Virus record (IMG/VR): IMGVR_UViG_3300042869_000303
Coordinates: 1 to 58,215 of that record
Source: a virus
Taxonomy: Duplodnaviria; Caudoviricetes
Strand: one strand, 5' to 3'
Length of the DNA stretch: 58,215 nt
Positions 1 to 31,352 of this stretch are shown here, piece by piece (position 1 is the stretch's first letter; every line of letters begins with the position of its first letter). The notes beneath the pieces were generated by a model. That model did not search any database. It worked only from the letters and a program-made list of their open reading frames with translations, and was not told the origin of the DNA. Position numbers and translations under genes: made by a program.

Positions 1-59
1 TCAAAATAATAAGTTGTAATGAACTATCCGGAAATTCCGAACAGTTAAAAGAAAAAACT

Positions 60-623
60 ATGAAAAGTAAATTAAACGGTTGTGGTTTTACACTTGCAAC
101 ATCAATAGTATTATGGGTTGTAATTATTGCTTTGCTTGCATCCTGCAAAACATCCGAGCAGTTGTATAACAAGGCAAAGGAAAAGCCGAATGGAGAGACA
201 AAGGTGGCAGAGTTAGCCCGTAAGGACTTTCCCTGCACTACCACTAAGATTGACAGTATAATTACCGTTGATACCCTTTATGATTCAATAGAGGTAGAAT
301 GCGACCCTATTATTAGAACGAGGGTAGATTCTTTTGAAACTGTTGTAGTCAGTAAGGTAAAGGTTCGTGTACCCCGGGAAGTGGTAACGATTCGCACAAC
401 AGAAAAGATTGAAGACAGCGCTAAAATAAAAGTCATGTATGCAGAAATTCAAAAGGCAGCAGCGATGATAGTGGCAGAAAGGAAGCTCACTGAGCAACAA
501 AAGTTGGAGACAGAAAAGGAGCGTAAAGCAAAGAACAAGTGGCGAAAGTGGTGCTTAATAACGTGGGGCATACTAGGTGCCATTGTAGCATTTAGATTGT
601 TGAGGTCGAAAATAGGGTTTTAA
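60..623 (+). CDS. putative unimolecular spanin (lipoprotein with C-terminal TM helix)
   Basis: N-terminal hydrophobic stretch ending in a lipobox LLAS-C (Cys29), beta-rich middle, coiled coil, and C-terminal TM segment (WCLITWGILGAIVAFRLL) flanked by basic residues. Confidence 0.65.
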   Translation: MKSKLNGCGFTLATSIVLWVVIIALLASCKTSEQLYNKAKEKPNGETKVAELARKDFPCTTTKIDSIITVDTLYDSIEVECDPIIRTRVDSFETVVVSKVKVRVPREVVTIRTTEKIEDSAKIKVMYAEIQKAAAMIVAERKLTEQQKLETEKERKAKNKWRKWCLITWGILGAIVAFRLLRSKIGF

Positions 624-2174: not shown

Positions 2175-2433
2175 AATAATAGCGGCAGGTCATCGTGCAG
2201 TTGACGAGCTGATTAAGGTTGCCGAAGAGTCAATTTTAAAGCATGGTGAGGACGAAGAAGACCTGTCTGCCGACAAGTTAAAGAATGCTGCAGCTACAAA
2301 AAAGTTGGCAATCTTTGATGCGTTTGAAATCCTAAGCAGGATTGAACAAGAACGAGAAAATATAGATTCTATTGATAAAGGAGAAAGCAAAACAGACTCA
2401 AAGCAAGGGTTTGCGGAAAGAAGGTCTAGATAG
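2152..2433 (+). CDS. putative terminase small subunit
   Basis: Small helical protein overlapping the 5' end of the terminase large subunit gene; call is positional. Confidence 0.45.
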   Translation: MSKETKLRIIAAGHRAVDELIKVAEESILKHGEDEEDLSADKLKNAAATKKLAIFDAFEILSRIEQERENIDSIDKGESKTDSKQGFAERRSR

Positions 2434-4660
2434 CGACTTATACCGAGAGTTAGTAGACTATATACCACAAGCTGCCTTGTCTAGAAAGAATAAGAGCAAG
2501 TCTTGGGAATATGGCTATGACGAAAAGTATGACATGGTTGTTATCTCAAAGACCGGGCAAATAGGCAAGATAGTAACCATATCGGGTGTGGTGATTGCTT
2601 TGCCTGCTACTCCCGAAAAGTGCCCTCAAAGACACGCCTCCAAGGCTGAGCAATATTGGGAAAGAGAAGAGCTGAGCAAAGATTTAGCAAGGATTCAGTC
2701 TATATTTCATTGGAACGAAATGCCATCTCAGTTTAAAGATCGTTGGATTGATTATATAGAACAGCAGTTCGAGAACAGAGAACATGGGGTTTGGTTTATG
2801 AACAATGGAGTACCTACCTACATCACCGGGTCCCATTGGATGTACCTGCAGTGGTCAAGTATAGATATTGGCTATCCTGACTTCCGTGAGGCAAATAGAA
2901 TCTTTTATATCTTTTGGGAAGCGTGCAGGGCTGACTACAGGTGCTTTGGGCTAATATACCTTAAGATAAGGCGCTCGGGCTTTTCGTTTATGGCTTCTTC
3001 TGAGTGCGTTAATATAGGCACCCTTGCTAGGGATGCTAGGATTGGCATACTCTCAAAGACCGGTCCTGATGCAAAAAAAATGTTTACAGACAAGGTTGTT
3101 CCAATTAATAGTCGTCTGCCTTTCTTTTTTAAGCCTGTTATGGATGGTATGGATAAGCCGAAGACAGAGTTAGCGTTCCGTCTGCCGGCATCCAAGATTA
3201 CCAAGAAGAACATGTACGACATACAGACCGATGAGATAGATGGTCTAGATACAACTATAGATTGGAAGAATACAGACGATAACTCCTATGATGGAGAAAA
3301 GCTGTTGTTCCTAGCGCATGACGAGAGTGGAAAGTGGACCAAGCCGGTAAACATCAAGGAGAATTGGAGGGTTACGAAGACTTGTTTGCGCTTGGGTAGC
3401 AGGATTATAGGAAAGTGTATGATGGGCTCTACGTCAAATGCCTTATCTAAAGGCGGTCAAAATTTCAAGGATATTTACGAGGACTCTCTTGTGTCTAGAA
3501 GGAATGCAAACGGTCAGACGAAAAGTGGACTGTATTCCTTATTTATTCCCATGGAGTGGAACATGGAGGGATTTATCGATAGGTACGGTATACCGGTGAC
3601 TAGGAAGCAGAAAGAAAAGATACGTGGGATAGACAACGGTTGGGTGTCAAATGGTGCAATTGACTATTGGGAGGCGGAGGTTGACTCCTTAAAAAGTGAT
3701 GCAGATGCATTGAATGAATTTTATCGTCAGTTTCCAAGAACAGAGTCGCATGCATTTAGGGACGAAAGCAAACAAGCGCTATTCAACCTTACCAAGATAT
3801 ATCAGCAGATTGACTACAATGACAGCATGATTAAGGAGCACTTTATTGTGCAGGGGTCCTTCCAATGGAAGGATGGTGTAAAAGACACCTCTGTAGTTTG
3901 GTCTCCAAATAAAAGTGGAAGGTTCTTTGTTAGTTGGTTTCCTCCGAAGCACATGCAGAATAACATTCACACAAGGGGAGGTATAAAGTACCCGGGCAAT
4001 GAGCACCTAGGCTCATTTGGCTGTGACCCATACGATATATCTGCAGTGGTCGATGGTCGAGGCTCAAACGGTGCGCTCCATGGGCTTACAAAATTTCACA
4101 TGGATGAAGCACCTATTAATGAGTTCTTCTTAGAGTATGTTGCTAGACCACAAACAGCAGAGATATTTTTTGAGGAAGTGCTTATGGCGTGTGTATTTTT
4201 TGGGATGCCAATACTGATTGAGAACAACAGGTCAAGGTTGCTATACCATTTTAAGAACAGAGGGTACCGTGGATTCTCATTGAACAGACCCGATAAGCAA
4301 TTTTCAAAGCTGTCAAAAACAGAGAAAGAACTTGGGGGCATACCAAACTCATCAGAAGACGTAAAGCAGTCGCATGCTGCTGCTATTGAGAGCTATGTTG
4401 AGCAGTACGTTGGCTTTGACATGGAGGCTAAGTATAGGGAATCTGACATGATGGGAACAATGCCTTTTACAAGGACGTTAGAGAATTGGGCAAAGTTCGA
4501 CATTAACGATAGAACGAAGTTTGATGCCTCGATAAGTTCGGGGTTGGCAATCATGGCAAATCAGAAGCATATGTACGTTCCTGAAAAAAAAGAGTCAAAA
4601 ATTAGTGTTAGCTTTGCTAGGTATAAACAAGACGGCAACTTAAGTGAATTAATACGATGA
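2372..4660 (+). CDS. terL: terminase large subunit
   Basis: Variant Walker A LKIRRSGFS, Walker B FLAHDESGKW, motif III GST, nuclease GCDPYD and C-terminal KFDASIS; followed by portal. Start codon uncertain. Confidence 0.9.
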   Translation: MIKEKAKQTQSKGLRKEGLDSDLYRELVDYIPQAALSRKNKSKSWEYGYDEKYDMVVISKTGQIGKIVTISGVVIALPATPEKCPQRHASKAEQYWEREELSKDLARIQSIFHWNEMPSQFKDRWIDYIEQQFENREHGVWFMNNGVPTYITGSHWMYLQWSSIDIGYPDFREANRIFYIFWEACRADYRCFGLIYLKIRRSGFSFMASSECVNIGTLARDARIGILSKTGPDAKKMFTDKVVPINSRLPFFFKPVMDGMDKPKTELAFRLPASKITKKNMYDIQTDEIDGLDTTIDWKNTDDNSYDGEKLLFLAHDESGKWTKPVNIKENWRVTKTCLRLGSRIIGKCMMGSTSNALSKGGQNFKDIYEDSLVSRRNANGQTKSGLYSLFIPMEWNMEGFIDRYGIPVTRKQKEKIRGIDNGWVSNGAIDYWEAEVDSLKSDADALNEFYRQFPRTESHAFRDESKQALFNLTKIYQQIDYNDSMIKEHFIVQGSFQWKDGVKDTSVVWSPNKSGRFFVSWFPPKHMQNNIHTRGGIKYPGNEHLGSFGCDPYDISAVVDGRGSNGALHGLTKFHMDEAPINEFFLEYVARPQTAEIFFEEVLMACVFFGMPILIENNRSRLLYHFKNRGYRGFSLNRPDKQFSKLSKTEKELGGIPNSSEDVKQSHAAAIESYVEQYVGFDMEAKYRESDMMGTMPFTRTLENWAKFDINDRTKFDASISSGLAIMANQKHMYVPEKKESKISVSFARYKQDGNLSELIR

Positions 4661-7092
4661 AAAATTTAACAATAGATATAACATCTTCAGTATTTCCTAC
4701 TCAAATGGCTACAGATGCAGAAAAAGCTTCTGACTCTTATGGCTTGCAAGTTGGTCAAGCCATTCAGTACGAATGGTTCAAAAAAGACGGGGTGGGCTGC
4801 AGATATTATACTCAATGGAGAGAATTTCATAGGCTTAGGTTGTATGCAAGAGGAGAGCAGTCTACAAAGAAATACAAAAATGAATTGGCTATTGATGGAG
4901 ATCTTTCTTACTTAAACCTTGATTGGACCATCGTCCCTATTTTGCCAAAGTTTATTGACATTGTTGTTAATGGAATGTCTGAGCGATTGTTCAAAGTAAA
5001 GGCTTATTCTCAGGACGCTATTTCTCAGGGCAGAAGGAATGAGTACCAAAATATGGTTGAGACTCAGATGGCAGGAAAGGAGATACTAGAGAAGATACAA
5101 GAGAAGGCAGGAGTAGACCCATTTATGATGGCTCCTGAGAAGCTTCCATCGAATGACGAAGAGCTTCAGTTGCACATGCAGATTGCATACAAAACATCGA
5201 TAGAGATTGCGGAGGAAGAGGCGATAAATACAATTTTTGATACAAACAAGTATGACGAGATAAGAAGAAGGCTTGACTATGACTCTACCGTTGTTGGTAT
5301 TGGTGTAGCAAAGCATGAGTTTCTTCCCGGGGCAGGTGTTAAGATTTCGTATGTAGACCCTGCAAACGTTGTTTACAGCTATACAGAAGATCCTTATTTT
5401 AGGGATTGTTTCTATTGGGGTGAGATTAAGACGCTGCCTTTAACGGAGCTGTACAAGATAGACCCAACATTAACTTCTGAAGATGTAAACGAAATATCTC
5501 AGTACAGTCAGTCTTGGTATGATTATTATAATGTTGCTCAGATTTATCAAAATGACATGTTCTATAGGGACACATGCACATTGATGTACTTTAATTATAA
5601 GACAACCAAGAAGGTTGTTTACAAAAAGAAGGTTCTTGATAACGGTGGCGTTAGGGTGATTCAAAAAGATGACACGTTCAATCCGCCTACAGAGATGATG
5701 GAGGAGGGTAATTTTGAGAAGATAGAGAAGACTATTGACGTTTGGTATGATGGTATCATGGTAATGGGAACCAATATCTTGTTGAAGTGGGAACTTTCTG
5801 AGAACATGGTACGTCCTAAATCAGCAAGTCAGTATGCTATACCAAACTATGTAGCCTGTGCGCCAAGGATGTACAAGGGGGTTATAGAGTCATTGCTTAG
5901 AAGGATGATACCTTTTGCTGACCTTATACAGATCACGCATTTGAAGCTGCAGCAGGTAATCAACAGGATAGTTCCTGACGGTGTTTTTATAGATGCAGAT
6001 GGTCTTAATGAGGTTGACTTGGGCACCGGTAATGCGTATAATCCTGAAGACGCTTTAAGGTTGTATTTCCAAACGGGTAGTGTGATAGGAAGAAGTCTTA
6101 CGAGTGACGGTGATTTTAACAATGCAAGGGTTCCAATTACTCAGCTTACGTCTAACTCGGGCACTGCTAAGACTCAGATGTTACTTGCTAATTATAACCA
6201 CTACTTAAACATGATTCGGTCTGTAACAGGGCTGAATGAGGCAAGAGATGGTTCTACTCCTGACCCTAACTCATTGGTTGGTGTTCAGAAGTTAGCAGCG
6301 TTGAACTCAAATACGGCAACAAGACATATCCTTGAGAGTGGGTTGTTTATATACAAGACCTTAGCAGAGGCTATAACTTATAGAGTATCTGATATTTTAG
6401 AGTATGCAGATTTCAAAGAAGAGTTTATAAACCAAATCGGAAAGTACAACGTTGGTATTTTGGAAGAAATATCTGAGTTGTATTTGTATGACTTTGCTAT
6501 TTTTATAGAAGTTGCGCCTGACGAAGAGCAGAAGGCTCAGCTTGAGGCTAACATCCAAATGGCTTTGTCTAAGGGTGACATCAATCTTGAGGATGCTATT
6601 GACATTCGTGAGATAAGAAACTTGAAGATTGCCAATCAGTTGCTCAAGCTCAAGAGGGTTAAGAAGGAAGAGCGAGAGGAGAAGATGGAAATGCAGAAGC
6701 AGGCGATGATTTCTCAGCAGCAATTAAAGTCTCAAGAGATGGCAGGTCAAGTTGCTATGCAGAAGCTACAGACTGAGGCTCAGACTAAGATGCAAGTAAT
6801 ACAGATGCAGGGTCAAATAGACACTCAGATATTGCAGCAAGAGGCTCAGTTAAAGATAATGCTAATGGACAAAGAGTTCCAATATAATCTTCAGTTGGCT
6901 GATATGAACAATGGAACTACATCTCAGAGAGAACAAATGAAAGAAGACTCTAAGTCTAAAAGGATTAGTCAACAAAATTCAGAGCAATCGAAATTGATTA
7001 ATCAGCGAAAGAACAACTTGCCACCTTTGAACTTTGAGTCTAACGAGGATAGTTTAGACGGATTCGATATGGCTGAGTTTGAGCCTCGTTAA
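4657..7092 (+). CDS. portal protein
   Basis: 811 aa directly after terL; LNLDWTIVPILPKFIDIVVNG motif; Gln-rich C-terminal coiled coil as in podovirus portals. Confidence 0.85.
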   Translation: MKNLTIDITSSVFPTQMATDAEKASDSYGLQVGQAIQYEWFKKDGVGCRYYTQWREFHRLRLYARGEQSTKKYKNELAIDGDLSYLNLDWTIVPILPKFIDIVVNGMSERLFKVKAYSQDAISQGRRNEYQNMVETQMAGKEILEKIQEKAGVDPFMMAPEKLPSNDEELQLHMQIAYKTSIEIAEEEAINTIFDTNKYDEIRRRLDYDSTVVGIGVAKHEFLPGAGVKISYVDPANVVYSYTEDPYFRDCFYWGEIKTLPLTELYKIDPTLTSEDVNEISQYSQSWYDYYNVAQIYQNDMFYRDTCTLMYFNYKTTKKVVYKKKVLDNGGVRVIQKDDTFNPPTEMMEEGNFEKIEKTIDVWYDGIMVMGTNILLKWELSENMVRPKSASQYAIPNYVACAPRMYKGVIESLLRRMIPFADLIQITHLKLQQVINRIVPDGVFIDADGLNEVDLGTGNAYNPEDALRLYFQTGSVIGRSLTSDGDFNNARVPITQLTSNSGTAKTQMLLANYNHYLNMIRSVTGLNEARDGSTPDPNSLVGVQKLAALNSNTATRHILESGLFIYKTLAEAITYRVSDILEYADFKEEFINQIGKYNVGILEEISELYLYDFAIFIEVAPDEEQKAQLEANIQMALSKGDINLEDAIDIREIRNLKIANQLLKLKRVKKEEREEKMEMQKQAMISQQQLKSQEMAGQVAMQKLQTEAQTKMQVIQMQGQIDTQILQQEAQLKIMLMDKEFQYNLQLADMNNGTTSQREQMKEDSKSKRISQQNSEQSKLINQRKNNLPPLNFESNEDSLDGFDMAEFEPR

Positions 7093-21197: not shown

Positions 21198-24100
21198 ATG
21201 GACGAAAAAGCAATTGATCTCTTATACAAAAGAGCAAAGTCTGAGGGTTACACTAAGAGTGTAGATGAATTTGTTGTATTGCTTCATAATAATGATAAAG
21301 CATTTAACCTCATGTTCTCATATGCAAAGGAGAATGGCTACCAAAAAGATGAGAACTCTTTTGCTGAACTTGTAGGCAAAAAAAAAAGCGCAGCACAACC
21401 AATCCCGAAGAGCGTATTTCCCGTTATACCTACCATCCCCACCGCTACGGAATCGTCTGCGGCAGTTGGTTCTTCGGCTTCACCAAAACAACCAAAACCG
21501 AAGAGCGCATTCCCCGTTCAGCCTAATATACCAAGTGCTCCGGCAGCTAGTGCTCCGGCTTCACCAAAAAAGACGGGACCGGTTCGGAGTCTAGTGCCAA
21601 TCTCCCCGGAAGTTGGTTCTTCGGTTTCACCAAAAGAAAGTAAATTTAATGTAGAAGAATTTTTAAAAAGCACTAAGCAGCAACCGCAAAAAATATCTTC
21701 TGACAATTTGGTTTTGCCAAAGTTTTATGACCCGGTTACGGACTCAAAGAATATTGCAGAAACAGCTAAGCGTAAGGCAGAAAATGCAAGGCTATTAAAT
21801 ATTCAAAAAATAAAAGATGCTCAGAAGAAAAAAGAAGAGGATGCTAGAATAAAGGCTGCTGCAATTGGTATTGTAAAGACCCCTGAGTTTCAAAGCAAGT
21901 TAACCATTGTTGACGACAAGCTTATAGACCAAGATGAGGATGCTGTTGTCACTAGAATGAATAGAGAGTTTGGGCGTTATGGGTTTACATTTGAGAAAAC
22001 AGGTATTGGTGATGCTATGATAGTGCGCTCGTTTGATGGCAAGCATACCCTTGATGTTGACTTAGACCCTTTCAAAAAATCAACCGAGATAGAAGAAGCT
22101 TCAAATCTCCGTAAATTCTTAACGTCTTATGCTCAAGAAGATTTTAAGATAAAAGACGAAGACTTTCTTAGCCAAGCATACAAGGCTCAAAATTTAAGAA
22201 AGGTGGGTAGGCTTAATCCTGATGGCACCGAGTCCACTGTAAAGATGACTTCTTTTGAACAGGATGGTAAGTTCTATGCCATGCCTACACTATTCCCCAA
22301 GGACCCCAATAACTACAATACTAGCCCAAGCACTTGGGATGAATTATCTTTTGATAAGGCGCTGAAGGTTGCAAGGGAAAGAGGCGAGCTGTTCCAATTT
22401 AAAACAGATCAAGAGGCAAAAGATTTTGCAAAAGGCTCTTGGAAAGATGTTAGCACAAGAGATGTTGAGGCTGACAAGTTCTACAAGTCAAGGGGTTTAG
22501 ATTACATCTCAGAAAAGAAAAGGTACGATAAATACAAAGAACTAGATGACATCATAGACTTTGTTGAGGGTAACAACGAGGAGGGTAGAGAAGGGTTGAA
22601 GAAAACAAATCCTGAGTTGTTTATAAATGGTCGCTTAAGAGAGGATGCTGAAGAGTATATAAAGGAAATAAAAAATCAAAGAGATGCATTAGAACCTGTT
22701 GTAAAAGACTACGGTTTTTTTGATGACGCAAAGTCTGAAGTTGCTCGTATGGATTGGGATGCAAAACTTGCAGAAAGAGAGAAGGAGATAGTAGGTCAGG
22801 CTATTAAAATAAATAACGAGGCGAAAGCGATAGAATATGAACTTGATGCAAAATCAATCGAAACGTTTGGTATTCCGGCAAAGGACCTTCTTAAGTATAA
22901 GAATACAGACCCTAACATGCAGGCTGAGTTTGATGTGATAACAAAGGAGTACTATTCAGTTCAACAAACTCAAAAAGAAGCAGCAACAAAATTTGAAGTA
23001 GCAAAAACTTATTTTGATGCAAAGGCAGACAAGCAAATAAATGGAGAGTTAAAAGAAAATTTAAGAGGCTTTTGGAACTCTACTTATGATGCTTATAGTC
23101 AAGGACTAATTGGGGAGCAATTATTATCTTTCACAATGCCCGGTGGTAAAGACGTTTCTTCTTTTGCAGACAGAAAAGAGGCTGCGGAGTATATTGCCAA
23201 GCAGTATGCTGATATGTACAATACAGAAAGCAGGGCAATGGCTCGTTGGAGAAATACAAGAGGATTCCAAGAAGGATTAGGAGTTATTGCTGATGACCCT
23301 GCGGAGTTTTTGTCTACATGGGTAGCTACTTCTGTTTCTCAAATATTGCCTTATGGTTGGAAGATTATTGCAGGCTCTACAGCAACAGGTGCCGGAGTTG
23401 GTGCGGCAATAGGTGCTCCGGTAGGCGGAGTAGGAGCTATACCCGGTCTTATTACAGGTGCAGGATATGGATTTAGGTCAGGCATGGCAATTACTAACCT
23501 TGCTGCTGAATATACAGGCGCTATAATGTCTGCGGTTGAAAGCAATGGGTATAATCCAATGGACCCTGAGTCATTAGCAGAAGCTCTTGGGAAGAAAGAA
23601 ATTTGGGATGAAGGGAAAAACATAGGTTTAACTAGGGGTATACCTATTGCAGTAGTTGACATGCTTTCAGCCGGTCTTGCAGGAAGAATTTTTAAGCCTG
23701 CGAGTGCGTTAGCTTCCCGAACTAAAAAGATTGCTCTTGGTGCAGCAGAGCGTCTTGTGATTGACCCTGTTGCTGAAGGAACAGGAGAGCTTTTTGCGCA
23801 AGGAGCAGAAATTATTACGGGAACAGGCAGAAAGAGTATAGGATGGAAGGAGATAGCTGAAGAGACGATGGGTGGCTTAGGTAACAATACTATCAATTGG
23901 GGTATGAATACATACAAAGACCTAAGAGATAAAAACAATATAGACATAGCTAACAGCTTTACTAATATTGCGAACATAAGCTCTGAGAGTGCTTCTGACG
24001 AAAAGATTACTACTTGGGTTGACAATATGTTGCAGCTTAAGAAGATTGACGCTGATGTTGCTCAAAGAATAAATGAGAATGTTGGTTTGAGGAGAGAGGC

Positions 24101-27100
24101 GAGAGAGTTGTTAGAAGTTGGAACAAATAAGAATAAAAACTCAGAGGCAGTTAACAGGACCATGGAGTTGTTGGCTGCAAGAAAAGAGCTTTCTTCATCT
24201 CAAAATAGAAGAGAGATATACCGTTCAAAAATTCAAGATATTAATGCAGAGCTTGCTATTATAGGAGAGACTAAAAATACGCTTCCTGTAGACAAGGCTA
24301 TTGACTTAAGTACTATTATTGGGACTACTAGGCAGGGTACCTCTCAGTATTCTATAGATGGCAGAAGGTTTACAAAAGAGCAGTTTATTGAAAAGGTAAA
24401 AGCCCTGCCTGACGAGCAACTTAACAGAGTAGTATTGGGCGTAAAGAACGACCCTGAAACAGGTAAAATAATAAAACAAAGATACAATGCCATTCAAAAG
24501 CAAGCAGCAGGTCAAGTACCTGTACAGTCAGAAACCGGAGTTAGCCAAGAAGTGGTCGAAGGAGAACCCCAAGCAGAACCTCAAGTCCTTACCAAAGAAG
24601 GTGTCCAAGAAGAAGTAGATGTAGATGTGGAAAGCAAGATAAATAAAATGCTTAGCATAGACGAAAGCGACTACGATTTAGTTGACGAAGATGGCAGACC
24701 TGACACATTTGAAGAAGACCGTTTATCGAAAGACCAAAATGTAGAAATTACAAATAAGGGGGCTACTGTCTTTGTTAAAAAAGAAGACAACAATGAAATG
24801 TATTTATACGGATTAGCAAGCGAAAATAAAAATAAAGGAGAAGCTTCCGAGCTTTTAGACAAAATAATTTCCGTTGCAGATAAAATGGGATATGCAATAA
24901 AACTTGAGGCAATGGCTGAATCAGGTGGGCTTTCCCAAGAAGAATTGATAAGTTTTTATAAAAATAAAGGCTTTGAGTTTGATGGCATAACCGGAACTAG
25001 AAAAGCAAAAGCAGGTCAACAAGGTACTACTGATGTTGGACAAGCAGGGACAGCTCCAACCGCTCCCGTTCGGACTGAAGGAAGCGTAGCCAACCCTGCA
25101 TTGAAAGATGTAAAAAGCACAAAGAGAGCATTGGATGAAATGTTTAATTCAAGACCTGCATATGCTTTGTATAAATTAGTAAAAAATAAGTTTGCCCGTG
25201 CAGCATTAAAAGGAGTTACGTTTGACTTAGCTAATGCAAATGAAAATAGAATTACTGCAGAAGCATATCACCAAGCAAAGAAAAATGGTAAAAATCCCGA
25301 ATTAGTCAAAGCGGTAGAAGAATTATTTGGCAAACAACAAGCACAAGAATCAGAACAACAAACAACAGAAAGCGTATTAGACAAGCCTATAGAAGAGGTG
25401 TCTGTTGAGGATATAATAGCTGAGCTGAACCGTATTAAAAATCCATTGTCGAGTGCTGATATATCAGTAGCAGAATTAAATTCTGACGGAGAGATTCTTG
25501 ATTTCATAAGAAGAGCGTATGCAGTGTTGAAGTTCTTATACCCCAAAGCAACGTTTGAAGTTTATAATACCACCAAAGAATACGAAGCAGCAGGAGGGAG
25601 AAGAAATTCAAGAGGAGAGGCAATGATGAATGAAAATGGGGAGCATAGGATATTACTAAACTTAGAGGTAATAAAGGAACAAGGCTCTGCAAAGACAGCC
25701 TTTCATGAAGTTATTCATCCAATAGTATATGATGCTTTTGGAGCGAGCCCTGAAAAGCTAATCCCTATATGGAATGAGCTTTTCAGAACAATGAGGAACG
25801 TGAAGGGAATGGAACGAGTTTTTAGTCATGTTAGCCGTTACCCTACCAATGAAATAGCCGTAGAAGGTATTACAGAAACAATAACACAAATTGCTGCCGG
25901 GAACATTGATTTAAGCTCAGTGCCGAAATCACAAGCAAACAAATTTATTGAGTTAATAAATAAACTTTTTGAAGCATTAAAAATTGATTTTAGAATAAAT
26001 TCAATCAATGATTTCTCAGAAGTATCTAAAAAAGTAAAACAAGCTTTTGAGACTTCTAATGCAGAATCATTAAAGGGTATTATCAAAGGAGGAAAGAACA
26101 TTGATAATTACTACAAAAACTTAAAAAATAGGGACGCAAATCCTGAGGCAATAGAAAAGCTTCAAAAACTACTTCAAGAAAAATTAAAAATAGAAGTCGA
26201 ATCCGGAAGATTAAAGCAAGATAATGCCAACAAGATTCTAAAGGATAATAACATTGCAGCAGAAGAATCGTTAACAACTAAAAATAAAGAAAATGAAAAA
26301 GTACAATCCGAACGAACAGGAGACGGAGCAGGACGGGATATTGGCAGGAAAATTACGCCTCTTGAAGGCACGCCATCAGTCTCGGGCTTTAACGGACCGG
26401 ACGAACAGCTTGTTGCCGTTGCCGAAAAATATGCAGCAGAAAACGGAATCGACCTCAAAAGACAATCAGAATATGTCGAAGTAGATGAGGAAAGAGCAAC
26501 ACGAATAGCTGATGCTTATGAGCAAATGGCTAACGACCCTCAAAATCCAAAAGTAAAAGAAGCCTATCAAGAGTTAATCAAACAAACAATGGCGCAGTAT
26601 CAGGCATTAGTTGATGCAGGATATAAGTTTTGGTTTATGGACTTGAATATACCAAGCAATGCTGAGTATGCAGAATCTCCATATAATGCTATGCGTGATT
26701 TGAGGCAAAACAAAACCATGGGAGTATTCCCAACTGTTGATGGATTTGGCACAAGCGACCTTGATGTAAGCAACAATCCTTTATTAGAAGACACAGGTCT
26801 TAGATGGTCTGTAGGAGGCGTAGATGGAGAAAGAACGATTCCTGTATTAGCAAATGATTTGTTCAGGGCAGTTCACGATGCTTTTGGTCACGGATTAGAA
26901 GGCTCAGGATTTAGGGCAAGAGGAGAAGAGAATGCTTGGCAGGCTCACGTAAGATTATTTACAGGACCGGCAGTAGGAGCTATTACGAGTGAAACAAGAG
27001 GTCAAAACTCTTGGGTAAACTTTGGTCCTAACGGAGAATCTAATAGAACTGCAAGTACAGAAGACACTGTTTTTGCAGACCAAAAAACAGGTCTTATGCC

Positions 27101-30100
27101 TGATTGGACTTGGACAGAAGGTCGTGCAGGAGATATGAAGACGGAACAAGAAGCTAAGCCTACAACAGAACAGATTGGTGTAAAAGAATTAATGACTGCT
27201 GATACTAAGACTCCCACAACACTTAACAAGGTTCTTGATTTATTAAATAAAGCAGAGGAAAGTATTGATAAGTTTGGAAAAGAAACAGCAGGTGTAAACA
27301 TAGCACTTCCATTAGCGAAGGTTATTATAAAGGCAATCAAGGCTTTAGTAAAAACAGGTATAACTCTTCAAGAAGCTATCAGAATAGTAGCAGAGAAAAA
27401 TAAAGTAACTGAGCAGGATATTATCGAAAGCATTGAGATTCTTACTCAGGAACTAAATGAAACAAACCTGCCCGGCTATGACAGGATGATGGGAGAGGTT
27501 AATGGCATTATCTCTAAGTCACAAAAGCGTGGTGTTCCATTTAACACTATCATGAATAATGCTATGGAGTACGTGAAGAAGTCTAAGGTGTATGAAAACG
27601 CTACAGACATTCAGCGTGAGTCTTTGGTTCGTGAAATAAGAAAATTGTTTGGTAAGCGCGAGAAGGCTGCTCCATCAGTAAGTAAGGTATTAGGTGAGAC
27701 TAAAACAAAAGTAACTGTTGATGAGATGGCTGCTCTCAAGTCTCAGATAAAACTTGAGGCAAGGGCTGCAAGAGAAGCTAAGCTAGACCTTAATGGAAAG
27801 AGAAGGATGCTCAGTGATGCTGTTCGTAAGATGGCATCTACCGGAAAAATCCCTGCAAAAAAAGTAGCGGCAATTATAAACAAGATAGGGAAGTTAAATC
27901 TTGACAGCTACAAATCTGTACAAGCATTTATAGACTATGCAGGCAAGGTGTTTGCCGATGCTGAATATGCAGATAAGCTAAGCACAGCTAAGTCTACTAA
28001 ATCTGAAATATCAAGCCTTTCAAGAAACAAAGAAAAAAATGCTAACCTTAGAGATTTAGCAAGGGAGTTTATTAAAATAGACCCATCATTGGTTGAAGAC
28101 ATAGATGCATACAACGAAATGGCATCTCTGATAAAAGAGTCACTGAAGGGGTCAAAGATTGTTGGTAAGAAAGTAAACTTTGCTGAGATTGCAAATATCG
28201 AAAAAGCTACAGAGTATATCAAAGAAACAATGAATGCTCAGAGAGAAGCGCTTCAAAAAATTGCTTCTGATGAGATCCAAGAATTGATGGGTGTTGACCC
28301 TGATGACTTTACTTATGAAGAGCTATTAAGCCTTCTTCAAAAGGATGAGCCAATTACAAAATACAATGAGAGCATAATCCGTAATTTAATATCTAAAATG
28401 TTTGACATCAACTCTTCAATAATTAAGAGCATGATTAGAACAGGTGTGGATGCTTTTACCGGAGACCCTGTTGATTTTACAAAGTCTCAGGTCGATATTA
28501 TCACTCGGTTTATGGACATGAATTTAGATAGACTTAGTGCAAAAGAAGCTTTGCAAACGGTTGATGCATTAGCAAATTTTATTCAAAATAAGTCTACAGC
28601 AAAAATGGAATCAGTTCTTGCTGATTACCAAGGGAAAGTAAATGCAGAAGCTATTTTAAAGAAAGGAATATTTGCTGTACCATTAAGAAAAATGTTTTCA
28701 AAAGATTTTGGTAGATTATTAGCTGAACAAACAACTAACCTTGGACCTTTATTTACAAGACTATTTAAAGGAGTTCAACGTGGAGGTCTTGTTGAAGAAT
28801 ATATGGGAGTTACAAAACTAACAAATTCAAAAGCGTTAGCAGAGACAGAGGCAAATAATATTGCCAATGACTATGTAAAACAATTTTATAACAAAAAAGC
28901 CAATGGCGAAATATTCAATACTGAGTTAAATAATATAGAAAGAGGGATGGCTTCTTTTATGCTTAGAAATGTTATTGGTACTGATACTGAAATGCAAGAA
29001 GAATTTGATAGAAGAAAAAGGCTTATTGCTGAATCAATTGATGTTTTAAGAGAAGGCACTGAAATTGAACAGAAAAAAGCCGAGTTGTATAGCAAAGTTT
29101 TTGACAAAATTGTTTCAGAGTCTACAAACATTCAGGATATTAAAGATAAAACAGATGTTGTTAATTTAGATGCTGTTAATTTTTGGGTGGAACAGTGGTC
29201 TAATAAGTACGATGAGATGGCTGATGTGTCTTTAAATGTTTATAATAGAGTTTTAGGTAAAGACATCAACTACAACCCTGATAAATTTGTTAGACTTACT
29301 CGAGAGTCAGGAGATGTTGAATTATCTAACAACGAGTCTGCATTCCATAATAATAATGGTACTATATACAAGAAAGAGTCTTCAGGATTAATGACTGCAG
29401 TTAAGCCTAAGACTTTGCCTAAAAACACTAAGAATGGTGAAGTATCTAGGTACATTGATTTGTCATTTGATAAGAACAATGCAAACTCTATGTATGACGC
29501 TCTTGTTGATATTAAAACTGCTGCATCGATAAGACAAATAGAATCGTTTTTAAATTCTTCTTCTTTTAATAAAATTATTGGAACTCCTGAAGATGCAAAA
29601 ATTCTTAAAGAACGCATTCAGCTTTACGTGTCTAATATAAGAAATAAAAATCCTTATTCAAGTACAGATGAATTATCTAAGACAATACGTAGATTAAATA
29701 AAATAGCAGCAATTGGAGTAGGTCAAGCATTAGGAGGTGTAACTCAGCCTCTGAAGCAGGTTATACCTGTGGCAATAAACACTCTTATCAATGCCGGAAG
29801 TTTAGACTTAGGAGCTGTTTTTAATTCTTCTAAAAATAACTTTATATCAAACTCAGGATATGCAATTGCAAACAGAGGAGTTGAGTCTCAAGCTCTAATC
29901 GATTCTATAAACAGAATTATTGAAGAAGCAGCTAATTCAAATGGAGCAAAAGCATTGAGATTAATTGAAGAGGCAAATCAAAAGTGGTTAAAGGTTTTCT
30001 TGGTTAAACCTGATGTGTTTATTGCAAGAGCATCTTGGCTATCTTACTATGAACAGTCTTTAAAAAAACAAGGTATAGACACAAAAGGAATAGACTATGA

Positions 30101-31352
30101 TTCTCATGTTGTAAATGAACAAGCCGGTAATTACGCTCAGAGAATGGTTGACAGACAACAAAATATTTCTGATGCAGACCAAGCCGGAAAGTTATTTGCA
30201 GACAAGAATGATATTAAACAAGTGTTTATAAAAATGCTTATGCCTTTTGCAAGTTTTAGAATGAACCAAGCAACAAGGTTATCCAACGACCTTTCTACTA
30301 TTGGGTATTGGAATGTATCAACAACTGAAGACAAGATAATAGCAGCAAGGTCTTTAGCAGGATTTGCAGCAGAGATGGCTACGTTTAAAGTTATTTCCGG
30401 TTACATTTCTATACTATTAGGTACATTAACAAAGATGATAATGGGTAGAGAAGAAGAAGAAGAGGAATATGAAAAAAGAAAAAAGAATATAATTAAAGGT
30501 CAATTAACAGGAACCGTTACAGATATATTTTCTCCAATTCCATTATTAGATAAGCCTATTCAGGGGCTGACATACTATAGTCTTGATAAAATTCAAGATA
30601 TGTTGAATACTCCTGAAGACTCTAAGTTTAATATTTATAATGTTAAACAAGAAGAATTTATAAGAAGCCTTGGTCTGTTTGGTATTGCTGCAGACAGGGC
30701 AAATCAATTGGCTGAAATAGTGTATCTTTCTCAAACAGGTCAGTTCAAAGATAATTACGGGAACGATAAATATATAAGCCAAAAAGATCAATCTTTTATG
30801 GCTAAACTTATTGGTCCGTCAGTATTATCAAATTTTGGTCTTGCACCTTCTGAAGTTAGTAGCGTTATCAGGATGGCAATAAATGATGCTAAAAAGAAAT
30901 CATCATCAAAAGTGGGAGGAAAATCTGAAGAAGATTTATTGCTAGACAAAAAGGATAAAGAGGCTACGGCAGAAAATAAAATAAAGAAAGAGGAGAAAAC
31001 ACAGAAAAAAATAAAAGCATTAGAACAAATAAAAAAAGAGTTAATAAATTCTGACGAAAGTATAACGAATGAGATACAAAGACAGATAGACGAACTATCG
31101 ATGTCTCCTGAGCAGAAGAAGGCGTATGATGAGGATGAGAAAAATAGGGAGGCAAAACGATTAAAAGAAGAAGAGTATGATGCTTTGCTTCAGGGGTATG
31201 AGAACCAAACCGAAATGAAAAATGCAGACAAGGATTTGTGGGAAAAGACATTCGGACCTGAATCTCCTTATTCAAAAGAGAACTACGCAGAAAGAATGAT
31301 TAAGCGTATGCTTGAGAAGAAGATGTACCCTAAGAAAAAAGGTTGGGATTAA
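21198..31352 (+). CDS. giant internal virion (ejection) polyvalent protein
   Basis: 3384 aa; Gly-rich membrane hairpin (about 23365-23480), GNAT-like segment, HEVIH and HDAFGH metal-site motifs; last gene of the structural operon. Confidence 0.75.
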   Translation: MDEKAIDLLYKRAKSEGYTKSVDEFVVLLHNNDKAFNLMFSYAKENGYQKDENSFAELVGKKKSAAQPIPKSVFPVIPTIPTATESSAAVGSSASPKQPKPKSAFPVQPNIPSAPAASAPASPKKTGPVRSLVPISPEVGSSVSPKESKFNVEEFLKSTKQQPQKISSDNLVLPKFYDPVTDSKNIAETAKRKAENARLLNIQKIKDAQKKKEEDARIKAAAIGIVKTPEFQSKLTIVDDKLIDQDEDAVVTRMNREFGRYGFTFEKTGIGDAMIVRSFDGKHTLDVDLDPFKKSTEIEEASNLRKFLTSYAQEDFKIKDEDFLSQAYKAQNLRKVGRLNPDGTESTVKMTSFEQDGKFYAMPTLFPKDPNNYNTSPSTWDELSFDKALKVARERGELFQFKTDQEAKDFAKGSWKDVSTRDVEADKFYKSRGLDYISEKKRYDKYKELDDIIDFVEGNNEEGREGLKKTNPELFINGRLREDAEEYIKEIKNQRDALEPVVKDYGFFDDAKSEVARMDWDAKLAEREKEIVGQAIKINNEAKAIEYELDAKSIETFGIPAKDLLKYKNTDPNMQAEFDVITKEYYSVQQTQKEAATKFEVAKTYFDAKADKQINGELKENLRGFWNSTYDAYSQGLIGEQLLSFTMPGGKDVSSFADRKEAAEYIAKQYADMYNTESRAMARWRNTRGFQEGLGVIADDPAEFLSTWVATSVSQILPYGWKIIAGSTATGAGVGAAIGAPVGGVGAIPGLITGAGYGFRSGMAITNLAAEYTGAIMSAVESNGYNPMDPESLAEALGKKEIWDEGKNIGLTRGIPIAVVDMLSAGLAGRIFKPASALASRTKKIALGAAERLVIDPVAEGTGELFAQGAEIITGTGRKSIGWKEIAEETMGGLGNNTINWGMNTYKDLRDKNNIDIANSFTNIANISSESASDEKITTWVDNMLQLKKIDADVAQRINENVGLRREARELLEVGTNKNKNSEAVNRTMELLAARKELSSSQNRREIYRSKIQDINAELAIIGETKNTLPVDKAIDLSTIIGTTRQGTSQYSIDGRRFTKEQFIEKVKALPDEQLNRVVLGVKNDPETGKIIKQRYNAIQKQAAGQVPVQSETGVSQEVVEGEPQAEPQVLTKEGVQEEVDVDVESKINKMLSIDESDYDLVDEDGRPDTFEEDRLSKDQNVEITNKGATVFVKKEDNNEMYLYGLASENKNKGEASELLDKIISVADKMGYAIKLEAMAESGGLSQEELISFYKNKGFEFDGITGTRKAKAGQQGTTDVGQAGTAPTAPVRTEGSVANPALKDVKSTKRALDEMFNSRPAYALYKLVKNKFARAALKGVTFDLANANENRITAEAYHQAKKNGKNPELVKAVEELFGKQQAQESEQQTTESVLDKPIEEVSVEDIIAELNRIKNPLSSADISVAELNSDGEILDFIRRAYAVLKFLYPKATFEVYNTTKEYEAAGGRRNSRGEAMMNENGEHRILLNLEVIKEQGSAKTAFHEVIHPIVYDAFGASPEKLIPIWNELFRTMRNVKGMERVFSHVSRYPTNEIAVEGITETITQIAAGNIDLSSVPKSQANKFIELINKLFEALKIDFRINSINDFSEVSKKVKQAFETSNAESLKGIIKGGKNIDNYYKNLKNRDANPEAIEKLQKLLQEKLKIEVESGRLKQDNANKILKDNNIAAEESLTTKNKENEKVQSERTGDGAGRDIGRKITPLEGTPSVSGFNGPDEQLVAVAEKYAAENGIDLKRQSEYVEVDEERATRIADAYEQMANDPQNPKVKEAYQELIKQTMAQYQALVDAGYKFWFMDLNIPSNAEYAESPYNAMRDLRQNKTMGVFPTVDGFGTSDLDVSNNPLLEDTGLRWSVGGVDGERTIPVLANDLFRAVHDAFGHGLEGSGFRARGEENAWQAHVRLFTGPAVGAITSETRGQNSWVNFGPNGESNRTASTEDTVFADQKTGLMPDWTWTEGRAGDMKTEQEAKPTTEQIGVKELMTADTKTPTTLNKVLDLLNKAEESIDKFGKETAGVNIALPLAKVIIKAIKALVKTGITLQEAIRIVAEKNKVTEQDIIESIEILTQELNETNLPGYDRMMGEVNGIISKSQKRGVPFNTIMNNAMEYVKKSKVYENATDIQRESLVREIRKLFGKREKAAPSVSKVLGETKTKVTVDEMAALKSQIKLEARAAREAKLDLNGKRRMLSDAVRKMASTGKIPAKKVAAIINKIGKLNLDSYKSVQAFIDYAGKVFADAEYADKLSTAKSTKSEISSLSRNKEKNANLRDLAREFIKIDPSLVEDIDAYNEMASLIKESLKGSKIVGKKVNFAEIANIEKATEYIKETMNAQREALQKIASDEIQELMGVDPDDFTYEELLSLLQKDEPITKYNESIIRNLISKMFDINSSIIKSMIRTGVDAFTGDPVDFTKSQVDIITRFMDMNLDRLSAKEALQTVDALANFIQNKSTAKMESVLADYQGKVNAEAILKKGIFAVPLRKMFSKDFGRLLAEQTTNLGPLFTRLFKGVQRGGLVEEYMGVTKLTNSKALAETEANNIANDYVKQFYNKKANGEIFNTELNNIERGMASFMLRNVIGTDTEMQEEFDRRKRLIAESIDVLREGTEIEQKKAELYSKVFDKIVSESTNIQDIKDKTDVVNLDAVNFWVEQWSNKYDEMADVSLNVYNRVLGKDINYNPDKFVRLTRESGDVELSNNESAFHNNNGTIYKKESSGLMTAVKPKTLPKNTKNGEVSRYIDLSFDKNNANSMYDALVDIKTAASIRQIESFLNSSSFNKIIGTPEDAKILKERIQLYVSNIRNKNPYSSTDELSKTIRRLNKIAAIGVGQALGGVTQPLKQVIPVAINTLINAGSLDLGAVFNSSKNNFISNSGYAIANRGVESQALIDSINRIIEEAANSNGAKALRLIEEANQKWLKVFLVKPDVFIARASWLSYYEQSLKKQGIDTKGIDYDSHVVNEQAGNYAQRMVDRQQNISDADQAGKLFADKNDIKQVFIKMLMPFASFRMNQATRLSNDLSTIGYWNVSTTEDKIIAARSLAGFAAEMATFKVISGYISILLGTLTKMIMGREEEEEEYEKRKKNIIKGQLTGTVTDIFSPIPLLDKPIQGLTYYSLDKIQDMLNTPEDSKFNIYNVKQEEFIRSLGLFGIAADRANQLAEIVYLSQTGQFKDNYGNDKYISQKDQSFMAKLIGPSVLSNFGLAPSEVSSVIRMAINDAKKKSSSKVGGKSEEDLLLDKKDKEATAENKIKKEEKTQKKIKALEQIKKELINSDESITNEIQRQIDELSMSPEQKKAYDEDEKNREAKRLKEEEYDALLQGYENQTEMKNADKDLWEKTFGPESPYSKENYAERMIKRMLEKKMYPKKKGWD
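24487..24618 (+). CDS. nested 43-aa basic protein in the +1 frame of the giant gene
   Basis: ATG 24487 to TAG 24618 encodes MPFKSKQQVKYLYSQKPELAKKWSKENPKQNLKSLPKKVSKKK; A-rich leader. Confidence 0.7.
   Translation: MPFKSKQQVKYLYSQKPELAKKWSKENPKQNLKSLPKKVSKKK
26293..26484 (+). CDS. possible second nested +1-frame ORF (63 aa)
   Basis: Leader AAAAATAAAGAAAATG is almost identical to the leader of gene 642 (AAAAATAAAGAAATG). Confidence 0.4.
   Translation: MKKYNPNEQETEQDGILAGKLRLLKARHQSRALTDRTNSLLPLPKNMQQKTESTSKDNQNMSK

What the first reader, a model, noticed from the sequence alone, without database searches (positions are those of the whole stretch)
24487..24618. Complete small basic gene overprinted inside the giant ejection-protein gene
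The +1 frame encodes MPFKSKQQVKYLYSQKPELAKKWSKENPKQNLKSLPKKVSKKK behind an A-rich leader. I recognise this as the MPFKS..Q..YL....PE.AK.W..E......LP.KV pattern of small phage proteins, which I recall also as free-standing genes. In the host frame the same DNA reads as an acidic Q/E linker (NAIQKQAAGQVPVQSETGVSQEVVEGEPQ), so an acidic linker and a basic peptide share one sequence. Gene callers miss it. It may be a DNA-binding core peptide or a partner co-produced with the ejection protein.
Basis: partly seen in the sequence, partly recalled or inferred. Interest (0 to 1): 0.8.

Follow-up and report, generated by a model that had tools for sequence, protein, structure and literature searches.

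The report
Small basic gene nested in giant phage gene
A 43-residue, strongly basic protein gene lies hidden in a second reading frame inside a 3384-residue phage virion-protein gene, it is conserved in this nested form in many related phages, and it seems to be the older of the two frames.

Summary
The ORF is real: 24487..24618 (+), 43 aa, in the +1 frame of a 3384-aa ORF. Alone it is not beyond chance, since three such ATG ORFs lie in 6 kb. The comparative evidence is decisive.

- The same ATG-to-stop ORF sits in the same phase in all 83 of 83 sources.
- A search blind to the start region found the ATG in 73 of 73 evaluable sequences.
- Flanks of the host gene are saturated, yet the overlap is conserved. 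Variation falls on the small ORF's wobble positions: 56.3% of differences are silent in the small frame, 11.6% in the host frame.
- Codon choice also keeps the host frame open. Phe3 is TTC in 86/86 nested copies but TTT 30/TTC 25 elsewhere, and only 0.25% of synonymous redraws stay open.

The peptide belongs to a large, unnamed phage family (3126 clusters, mostly free-standing 45-70 aa). So the small gene is probably the older frame and the host's acidic linker the newer one.

Expression is inferred only: an A-rich, unstructured, SD-less leader. Function is unknown. This is a new variant of embedded phage genes such as Rz/Rz1.

The parts
24487..24618 (+). Embedded small gene: 43 codons plus TAG. 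The product is a basic (+12) two-helix mini-protein, MPFKSKQQ...KKVSKKK.
   Evidence: ORF. (ATG and stop conserved in relatives). (variation on its wobble positions). (large homologous family). (AF2 pLDDT 85.6, helices 6-15 and 17-26).
24457..24486 (+). Putative translation-initiation region of the small gene: A-rich, G-poor, no Shine-Dalgarno, weakly structured.
   Evidence: 75 distinct relatives have A 55% and G 11% in -30..-1, with A at 0.80 or more at -2, -3, -5, -8, -11, -13 and -20; it resembles the leaders of the window's other genes (0 of 23 with SD-like motifs). MFE of -25..+16 averages -1.37 against -4.96 kcal/mol for background. A at -3, -6, -12 and -13 favours initiation in Flavobacterium johnsoniae (Baez 2019, section read). 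Use as an initiation site is inferred, not shown.
24472..24474 (+). TAA stop in the small gene's frame, four codons upstream of its ATG. It closes that frame to ribosomes coming from upstream.
   Evidence: In relatives the frame is open for only 0-24 codons before the ATG.
24493..24495 (+). Phe3 codon TTC. TTT here would create TAA in the host frame.
   Evidence: TTC in 86 of 86 nested copies, against TTT 30 / TTC 25 in 55 non-nested copies.
24486..24617 (+). Host-frame segment over the overlap (host residues 1097-1140): an acidic E/V/Q/A/G/P/T-rich linker, NAIQKQ...VQEEV.
   Evidence: composition E 19%, V 14%, Q 14%; mean net charge -6.8; the frame stays open although only 0.25% of synonymous redraws would leave it open.
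21198..31352 (+). Host gene: a 3384-aa giant protein at the end of the structural module.
   Evidence: terminase, portal and virion proteins lie upstream; the Elemovirus counterpart is annotated 'structural protein'; only weak or uninformative family hits.

Best explanation
Window 24487..24618 is a genuine protein-coding gene embedded in the +1 frame of the giant virion-protein gene of a freshwater phage. Its portal is P22-like and its genes lack Shine-Dalgarno sequences, as in phages of Bacteroidota.

Shown:
- The 43-aa frame is under purifying selection at the amino-acid level.
- The host frame is kept open through it by constrained codon choice.
- The arrangement recurs in the same phase in well over a hundred distinct related sequences, including host genes with no other detectable similarity.

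Inferred:
- The peptide is made by internal initiation on the late mRNA, at an A-rich, unstructured leader of the kind used by Bacteroidota. A stop just upstream closes the frame to ribosomes from upstream.
- The small gene is the older partner, because its family (N-terminus MPFKSxAQ, two short helices, an LPxKV turn and a Lys-rich tail) is widespread and mostly free-standing. An upstream gene was extended through it. One possible step is a silent TTT-to-TTC change at Phe3, which erases a TAA in the host frame.
- Function (most speculative): a small basic late protein working with virion or packaging components, binding nucleic acid or an acidic partner such as the linker encoded by its own DNA.

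The confidence given is for the claim that this is a real, selected, embedded coding gene. The expression route, the direction of origin and above all the function are less certain.
For: Conservation of the ORF:
- It is intact, with ATG, in the same phase in 83 of 83 sources: 80 by pattern and 3 variants read by eye.
- A search pattern that excludes the first 30 nt found 74 distinct sequences. The ATG is at the homologous place in 73 of 73 evaluable ones; L189 is cut by the locus end.
- L165, found through the giant protein only, also carries it.

Selection on the small frame:
- Flanks are saturated: nt diversity .652/.542/.685 and aa diversity .846 over 108 columns.
- In the overlap, the small ORF's codon positions 1/2/3 have diversity .173/.087/.367. 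Amino-acid diversity is .187 in the small frame against .473 in the host frame.
- 56.3% of pairwise differences are silent in the small frame and change the host. 11.6% do the reverse.
- Control ORF 26293 shows the opposite, host-type phase.

Selection on the host frame:
- There are 0 stops in 86 of 86 nested cores, while 45 of 55 non-nested cores have at least one.
- Phe3 is TTC in 86/86 nested copies, against TTT 30 / TTC 25 in non-nested copies.
- Only 0.25% of synonymous redraws leave the host frame open.
- Lys codons are AAG 1139 / AAA 300 in nested copies, 278/217 in free copies, and 9928/13111 in the host-frame flanks.

Family and fold:
- 3126 representative clusters at E<=1e-3, mostly 45-70 aa with the module at residues 1-41.
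- A free-standing annotated gene exists in Streptomyces phage FlowerPower.
- AF2 gives pLDDT 85.6, and BFVD matches are 44-aa proteins of uncultured Caudovirales.

Initiation.

Route of origin: in L102, L132 and L147 and in L285 and L287, an upstream gene in the host phase ends at the TAA made by Phe3-TTT plus Lys4.
Against: - There is no direct evidence of transcription, translation or a peptide.
- The only curated-library hit is weak (phrog_1375, E 0.0012, 20.3 bits). Pfam and NCBIfam give none.
- The loci are related phages, not independent samples, and most were found through the peptide itself.
- The host-frame motif (D/N)A(V/I)Q.Q...VPV is also conserved and recurs in a second class of ~400-440-aa hosts. 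A function for that frame beyond openness cannot be excluded.
- A few copies alter the N-terminus: MFKSK (L061, L178, L193), MPFKVKYLF (L081), and one MPRESKQQ.
- One catalogue protein (P0024) carries the peptide in frame at the end of a 1033-aa N-part.
- Free-standing copies sit beside portal, terminase or tail-fibre genes, and in FlowerPower beside a holin. These are also common places for accessory genes, so a structural role is not established.
- The C-terminal parts of 43 fusion proteins share nothing with 156 nested hosts.
- On a 42-column tree, nesting needs at least 12 changes of state. Single or multiple origin is therefore open.
Confidence: 0.88

Rival explanations
1. The +1 ORF is a by-product. 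The host protein needs the conserved motif NA(V/I)QKQ...VPV...QE...G, for example as a cleavage or docking site, and conservation of that DNA passively preserves an untranslated open frame.
For: The host-frame motif is conserved and recurs in unrelated hosts. Off-frame ORFs can be conserved passively, as ORF 26293 shows.
Against: Variation follows the small frame: 56.3% of differences are silent there against 11.6% silent in the host frame, and amino-acid diversity is .187 against .473. The ATG and a stop bound the conserved stretch in 83/83 and 73/73 sequences. Homologues exist as free-standing genes whose host-phase frame is closed by stops in 45 of 55 cases. There are 3126 family clusters.
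Confidence: 0.04
2. The basic peptide is not made on its own. It is added to the N-terminal ~1100 residues of the giant protein by programmed frameshifting, giving a truncated product with a basic tail.
For: P0024 is a catalogue protein with the peptide in frame behind a 1033-aa N-part. Frameshift products are common in phage structural genes (general knowledge; review PMC5009743 seen in a search listing only).
Against: The +1 frame is closed by a stop 0-24 codons before the ATG, and directly before it in L012, L032 and L072. Conservation starts exactly at an invariant Met-Pro-Phe-Lys-Ser. The family is otherwise N-terminal or free-standing. I saw no conserved slippery run in the aligned leader, though I made no formal search. 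P0024 is a single sequence and could carry an indel.
Confidence: 0.04
3. The conserved stretch is a nucleic-acid element, such as an RNA structure, promoter or packaging site, and the ORF is incidental.
For: It is an island of nucleotide conservation in a saturated gene.
Against: Variation has three-base periodicity in the small frame's phase, and replacements are conservative (K/R, Y/F, L/V/I). The start region is less structured than background, not more. The Bacteroidota -7 motif TAnnTTTG is not enriched: 6 of 94 against 110 of 1672. Free-standing protein homologues exist.
Confidence: 0.02
4. The gene is real but plays no part in the virion. It is an accessory ('moron'-type) small protein acting on the host cell, for example on nucleic acids or translation, and it merely happens to be lodged in the giant gene. 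This rivals only the functional part of the best explanation, not the claim that the gene is real.
For: Free-standing copies lie at module borders that often hold accessory genes: after the portal or terminase, after tail fibres, and next to a holin in FlowerPower. No similarity links the fusion partners to the nested hosts.
Against: Every context examined is a late or structural region. The nested form recurs in the same phase in hosts that are otherwise unrelated, which suggests a functional tie to the host gene. Neither point is strong.
Confidence: 0.3

Closest known systems
Lambda Rz/Rz1 two-component spanin genes (embedded, overlapped and separated architectures)
   Same: A small gene lies wholly inside the +1 frame of a larger late phage gene. 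The family shows all three layouts. Here they are nested, overlapping the end of the upstream gene (L102, L132, L147) and separate.
   Different: The peptide has no signal sequence or lipobox Cys. It is soluble and strongly basic, and in the window it is not in a lysis cassette. The host is a giant virion protein, not a membrane protein. The Rz/Rz1 details are recalled. Kongari 2018 (PMC6139136) was seen only as a search listing with the start of its abstract.
Overprinted genes of small viruses (phiX174 E in D, B in A; review PMC8227390)
   Same: Two proteins are read from one DNA stretch in different frames, with one frame more constrained than the other.
   Different: In classical overprinting the embedded frame is the young, lineage-restricted one. 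Here the embedded gene has the wide distribution (3126 clusters) and the host's linker is restricted to nested loci. The review was seen as a search listing and abstract start only; the phiX174 examples are recalled.
Uncharacterised ~44-aa proteins of uncultured Caudovirales (e.g. A0A6J5L1Y8), Streptomyces phage FlowerPower gp48, phrog_1375
   Same: They share the sequence family and predicted fold: BFVD TM 0.80 with 53% identity, tblastn hits, the annotated free-standing gene, and a weak PHROG hit.
   Different: These are free-standing genes. None has a known function.
Pfam DUF3008 (PF11450)
   Same: It has a similar N-terminal MPxKSKxQ-like start (recalled). The ESM Atlas listed a cluster with 15% DUF3008 members at score 0.85, below the tool's 0.9 guide value.
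   Different: There is no Pfam hit for the peptide or for relatives at E up to 10 and 0.1.
Polyvalent / giant multidomain virion proteins (Iyer et al. 2017, PMC5512222)
   Same: The host gene is a very long, mosaic, rapidly diverging protein in the structural module.
   Different: Membership was not tested, because no diagnostic domains were found. The paper's text has no occurrence of 'overlapping' or 'frameshift' (term search of the main text only).

Membership tests
MPFKS small phage protein family (uncurated; defined here by alignments A1-A3) | N-terminal M-P-F-K/R-S at residues 1-5 and Q8 | tested here: met
   M1, P2, S5 and Q8 are invariant and F3 and K4 are at 90% or more in 96 sequences. 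The window peptide has all of them.
MPFKS small phage protein family (uncurated; defined here by alignments A1-A3) | Conserved P17, A20, W23 and L35-P36, and a basic C-terminal tail | tested here: met
   Mean net charge is +12.
MPFKS small phage protein family (uncurated; defined here by alignments A1-A3) | Significant profile similarity to free-standing members | tested here: met
   hmmsearch with A1 gives 3126 hits at E<=1e-3 and 63 at E<=1e-10. Note that A1 contains the window peptide.
phrog_1375 | Profile match | tested here: inconclusive
   E 0.0012, 20.3 bits, profile positions 17-54 of 70. Relatives score E 7e-5 to 0.01.
Pfam DUF3008 (PF11450) | Pfam profile match | tested here: not met
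   0 families at E up to 10.
Embedded overlapping gene pair (Rz/Rz1-type architecture) | The whole small ORF lies inside a larger gene, on the same strand, in another frame | tested here: met
Embedded overlapping gene pair (Rz/Rz1-type architecture) | Both frames under selection | tested here: met
   Small frame. Host frame (openness and codon choice).
Embedded overlapping gene pair (Rz/Rz1-type architecture) | Both products made | not testable with these tools
   No RNA holder was listed. No proteomic data are at hand.
Spanin (o-spanin, Rz1-like) | Signal peptide with a lipobox Cys | tested here: not met
   The window peptide has no Cys and no hydrophobic stretch.
De novo overprinted gene | The embedded frame is phylogenetically restricted compared with the host frame | tested here: not met
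   The embedded frame's family is broad and mostly free-standing. The host-frame linker was seen only in nested loci.
   Pfam gives DUF6861 below its cutoff (27 against 28 bits). phrog_3170 has unknown function. One weak PDB hit. The Elemovirus counterpart is annotated 'structural protein'.

The most novel reading that the evidence does not exclude
Gene engulfment rather than overprinting. An old, free-standing small gene was swallowed when a silent TTT-to-TTC change at its Phe3 codon erased the TAA that ended the upstream gene. That gene then read on through the small gene in the -1 phase and fused to what lay beyond. This created a giant protein whose new acidic linker is the charge-mirror of the basic peptide still translated from the same DNA. 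The two products then work as a pair, with the basic peptide docking on, or being delivered with, the acidic linker. The cassette (small gene plus linker) has since spread among otherwise unrelated structural genes.
Probability: 0.2. Interest if true: 0.8.

Novelty: new variant of a known kind. Interest (0 to 1): 0.7.

Why it matters
Embedded genes in tailed phages are known from only a few cases, chiefly Rz/Rz1. This one is conserved in at least 112 distinct nested sequences from lake and other environmental viral contigs and in the cultured Elemovirus phages of Flavobacterium. It is absent from the two GenBank records I opened.

It gives a clean natural case of dual coding. The embedded gene is the ancestral one and the host's linker the derived one, and a plausible one-nucleotide route connects the two states. 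All three architectures are available for comparison: separate, overlapping and nested.

It also puts a name and a testable start site on a very large family of small phage proteins (3126 clusters) for which no function is known. Because 68 Elemovirus genome records from a culturable Flavobacterium host carry it, the silent ATG knockout and peptide detection are directly feasible.

Tried and rejected
Searches and tests that led nowhere:
- Curated families for the peptide: Pfam none, NCBIfam none, PHROGs only a weak phrog_1375 hit.
- ESM Atlas: only unnamed clusters.
- PDB by sequence: hits to designed 'Cake' and 'Scone' propellers come from repeated 3.6-bit matches to LYAINPDGTEKWRF. Rejected as spurious.
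- Foldseek against the PDB: nothing better than E 6.9.
- Complex prediction of the portal (811 aa, alignment A4) with the peptide (A3): no answer, score 0.00. This is not used for or against binding.
- Sequencing runs: 21 lake-water DNA runs hold the stretch and no RNA holder is listed.
- blastn of window 23500-25500 against the phage collection: no match.
- Microviridae idea: many hit contigs were 4-7 kb, but they carry terminase and portal genes. Rejected.
- Rosetta-stone test: the C-terminal parts of 43 fusion proteins against 156 nested host proteins gave no hits at E<=1e-4.
- P0024 against the window's giant protein: no significant similarity, best E 0.05.
- Promoter motif TAnnTTTG: not enriched.
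- Giant-protein domains: nothing informative.
- Literature: searches listed no paper whose title or abstract start describes this nested gene. That is the only basis for calling it unreported, and most subscription journals are not in that library. Supplements were not consulted.
- PHROG scans of neighbours: several had no hit (L113, L150, L160, L140, L139 upstream, L152, L293, L110, L102, L132, L147).
- Rows dropped before counts: one search dropped L041 (too near the locus end) and the duplicates L023 and L047. One search left out copies within 200 nt of a locus end.
Full report
**What is there.**
The window is a phage genome or near-genome of 58,215 bp with 39% G+C. It encodes a large terminase (2372-4660), a P22-type portal (4657-7092) and virion proteins. 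A 3384-aa ORF (21198-31352) closes the structural module. Inside that ORF, in its +1 frame, lies the ATG-to-TAG ORF 24487-24618. The host frame over the same DNA reads an acidic Q/E/V-rich stretch. By itself the ORF is unremarkable. Three out-of-frame ATG ORFs of 43 aa or more lie on the + strand between 22 and 28 kb.

**Relatives.**
- tblastn against 50,697 phage records gave only weak E-values (0.2-0.6). All 68 Flavobacterium Elemovirus hits and the hit in MW202828.1 fell under giant structural-protein genes.
- In the two records I opened, the match is in the +1 frame of the giant CDS. It has an ATG and a stop at the homologous places, and it is not annotated.
- The protein catalogue holds 20 clusters of 42-60 aa.
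- A scan of IMG/VR with their alignment found 598 pattern matches, 390 of them confirmed, and the best 80 loci were kept.
- In the window, L001, L002 and those 80 loci (83 sources), the ORF is intact and nested in a long open frame in the same phase. Eighty were found by pattern. Three have small N-terminal variants and were read by eye.
- The scan pattern contained the Met codon, so I repeated the search with a degenerate pattern covering only nt 31-99 of the ORF. This gave 74 distinct sequences. The ATG is in place in all 73 that can be judged.
- L165 was found through residues 635-934 of the giant protein alone. It also carries the nested ORF.

**Which frame is selected.**
I made a codon alignment of the host frame from 77 distinct sequences.
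- The flanks are saturated. Nucleotide diversity is .65/.54/.69 at host codon positions 1/2/3 and amino-acid diversity is .85.
- Host codons 0 to about 43 form an island of conservation. There the variable position is host position 1, which is the small ORF's wobble position.
- In 75 ungapped sequences the small ORF's positions 1/2/3 have diversity .173/.087/.367. Amino-acid diversity is .187 in the small frame and .473 in the host frame.
- Of all pairwise differences, 56.3% are silent in the small frame and change the host. 11.6% do the reverse, and 32% change both.
- As a control, ORF 26293-26484 (also +1 frame, 63 aa) has tblastn hits in 10 loci. Its variation follows the host frame (host positions 2 < 1 < 3), so it is a passive echo of a conserved host domain.

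**The host frame is selected too.**
- In 86 of 86 distinct nested cores the host phase has no stop. In 45 of 55 non-nested cores it has at least one.
- Phe3 is TTC in 86/86 nested copies, because TTT would make TAA in the host frame. In non-nested copies it is TTT 30 / TTC 25.
- Redrawing synonymous codons for the nested peptides leaves the host frame open in only 0.25% of trials, and in 0 of 300 for the window.
- Lys codons in nested copies are 79% AAG (1139/1439). The share is 56% in free copies and 43% in the host-frame flanks. This makes the next host codon start with G, which favours E, G, A and V.
- The host segment has a mean net charge of -6.8 and the peptide +12.

**The family.**
A profile of the 21 sequences was searched against 1.84 billion representatives. 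It found 3126 clusters at E<=1e-3 (63 at E<=1e-10). Most of the 150 listed are 45-70 aa with the module at residues 1-41. Some are longer proteins (100-868 aa) with the module at the N-terminus. The attached parts include DUF5661, DUF6321 and phrog_7595. No Pfam, NCBIfam or named Atlas cluster covers the module. AlphaFold with 96 sequences gives a confident two-helix mini-domain (pLDDT 85.6). Its only structural neighbours are uncharacterised 44-aa proteins of uncultured Caudovirales and of Streptomyces phage Fabian.

**Architectures and contexts.**
A second IMG/VR scan with free-standing members and a scan of species-representative genomes showed four layouts:
- Separate small genes.
- Small genes whose first codons overlap the end of the upstream gene.
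- N-terminal fusions.
- Nested copies, always in the same phase. These include giant hosts with no BLAST similarity to the window's host (L094, L097, L144, L149, L154) and a class of ~400-440-aa hosts (L110, L293, L295, L298).

Free-standing copies lie in late regions:
- Directly after a portal gene (L087, L124, L136).
- After or near the large terminase (L093, L088, L091, L112, L126).
- Before a portal-like gene (L101, L111, L139).
- After tail-fibre genes (L131, L134).
- Next to a holin in FlowerPower.

On a 42-column tree of 169 distinct peptides (112 nested, 57 free), nesting needs at least 12 changes, against 38-53 in 200 label shuffles. Ninety-two nested rows form one pure clade. The tree is too short to say how many origins there were, and the AU test did not finish.

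**Direction and route (inference).**
The embedded gene's family is wide and mostly free-standing, while the host's linker is seen only in nested loci. The small gene is therefore probably the older frame. In L102, L132 and L147 and in L285 and L287, an upstream gene of 88-224 codons runs in the host phase and ends at the TAA formed by Phe3-TTT plus the first two bases of Lys4. A silent TTT-to-TTC change would remove that stop and extend the upstream gene into the small gene in exactly the nested phase. Ten of 55 free cores already have no stop in that phase.

**How it is probably expressed (inference).**
- None of 23 gene starts in the window has an SD-like motif. Their leaders are 51% A and 9% G, as in Bacteroidota and their phages.
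- The embedded gene's leader looks the same. In 75 distinct relatives it is 55% A and 11% G, with A at 0.80 or more at -3, -11 and -13 and 0.73 at -12. Those are positions reported to favour initiation in Flavobacterium johnsoniae (Baez 2019, PMC6847099; abstract and section 15 read).
- The -25..+16 window is much less structured than the rest of the gene. Mean MFE is -1.37 against -4.96 kcal/mol, and 77 of 94 loci fall in the least-structured fifth.
- No Bacteroidota promoter motif is enriched upstream. The late mRNA of the giant gene is therefore the likely template.
- A stop 0-24 codons before the ATG argues against entry by frameshifting.

**Function.**
Unknown. The peptide is a compact, very basic hairpin with a Lys-rich tail. 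The module heads diverse longer proteins, and its genes sit in late regions. My best guess is a late protein that binds nucleic acid or an acidic partner in virion assembly or delivery. An accessory, host-directed role is a serious rival. A portal-peptide complex prediction gave no answer and is not used as evidence.

**Standing.**
The closest known analogue in architecture is Rz/Rz1. I rate it a new variant of a known kind.

Noticed in passing
window 26293-26484 (+): A second +1-frame ATG ORF (63 aa) inside the giant gene is open and 51-69% identical in 10 of 298 held loci. Its variation follows the host frame, so it looks like a passive echo of a conserved host domain (host motif TPLEGAPSVPGxNGPDxQLVAVAE).
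   Followed up: yes
window 3-623 (+, 5' open) and 54068-58213 (+, 3' open): The last long ORF (1382 aa) runs off the end of the window and another runs in from its start. They may be one gene across the ends of a circularly permuted assembly, which would make a second very long gene.
   Followed up: no
window, 23 gene starts: None of 23 gene starts has an SD-like motif. Leaders are 51% A and 9% G with an A peak at -13 to -11. This points to a Bacteroidota-type host.
   Followed up: partly
window 4657-7092 versus 21198-31352: The portal is 79-100% identical across the 120 protein clusters listed, out of 8000 scored hits. The giant gene's flanks around the overlap are saturated and mosaic; only 5 of 80 loci share residues 635-934.
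   Followed up: partly
L293, L295, L298 (MAG contigs) and L110: The same small gene with the same host-frame motif (DAVQEQSTDEVPV) is nested near the 5' end (host residue 57-74) of ~400-440-aa genes of unknown family. These share a downstream motif LPENVxxLVKFMxETGG.
   Followed up: partly
P0024 (catalogue protein, 1075 aa): It carries the peptide in frame as its last 41 residues, behind a 1033-aa N-part. It is either a natural split or fused variant, or an indel in one metagenomic contig.
   Followed up: partly
L001, L002 (Elemovirus and MW202828.1); P0019, P0020; L296: A sub-type of the peptide has a two-residue insertion and two Cys (KACY..NPKWDCKKW) where the window's type has Y/L and A. 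A disulfide or metal site is possible.
   Followed up: no
P0023 (1287 aa): The profile also matches seven repeats of YAKHPELADKWSERN in a Cys-rich repeat protein. This is probably a shared short helical motif rather than homology.
   Followed up: no
window 23351-24025 (-): A 224-aa TTG-initiated ORF lies antisense inside the giant gene, ending about 460 nt upstream of the small gene.
   Followed up: no
L083 (Streptomyces phage FlowerPower, record 27334-27552): A free-standing family member, gene 48 (72 aa), lies between a 76-aa 'peptidase' and the holin. Its start overlaps the stop of gene 47.
   Followed up: partly
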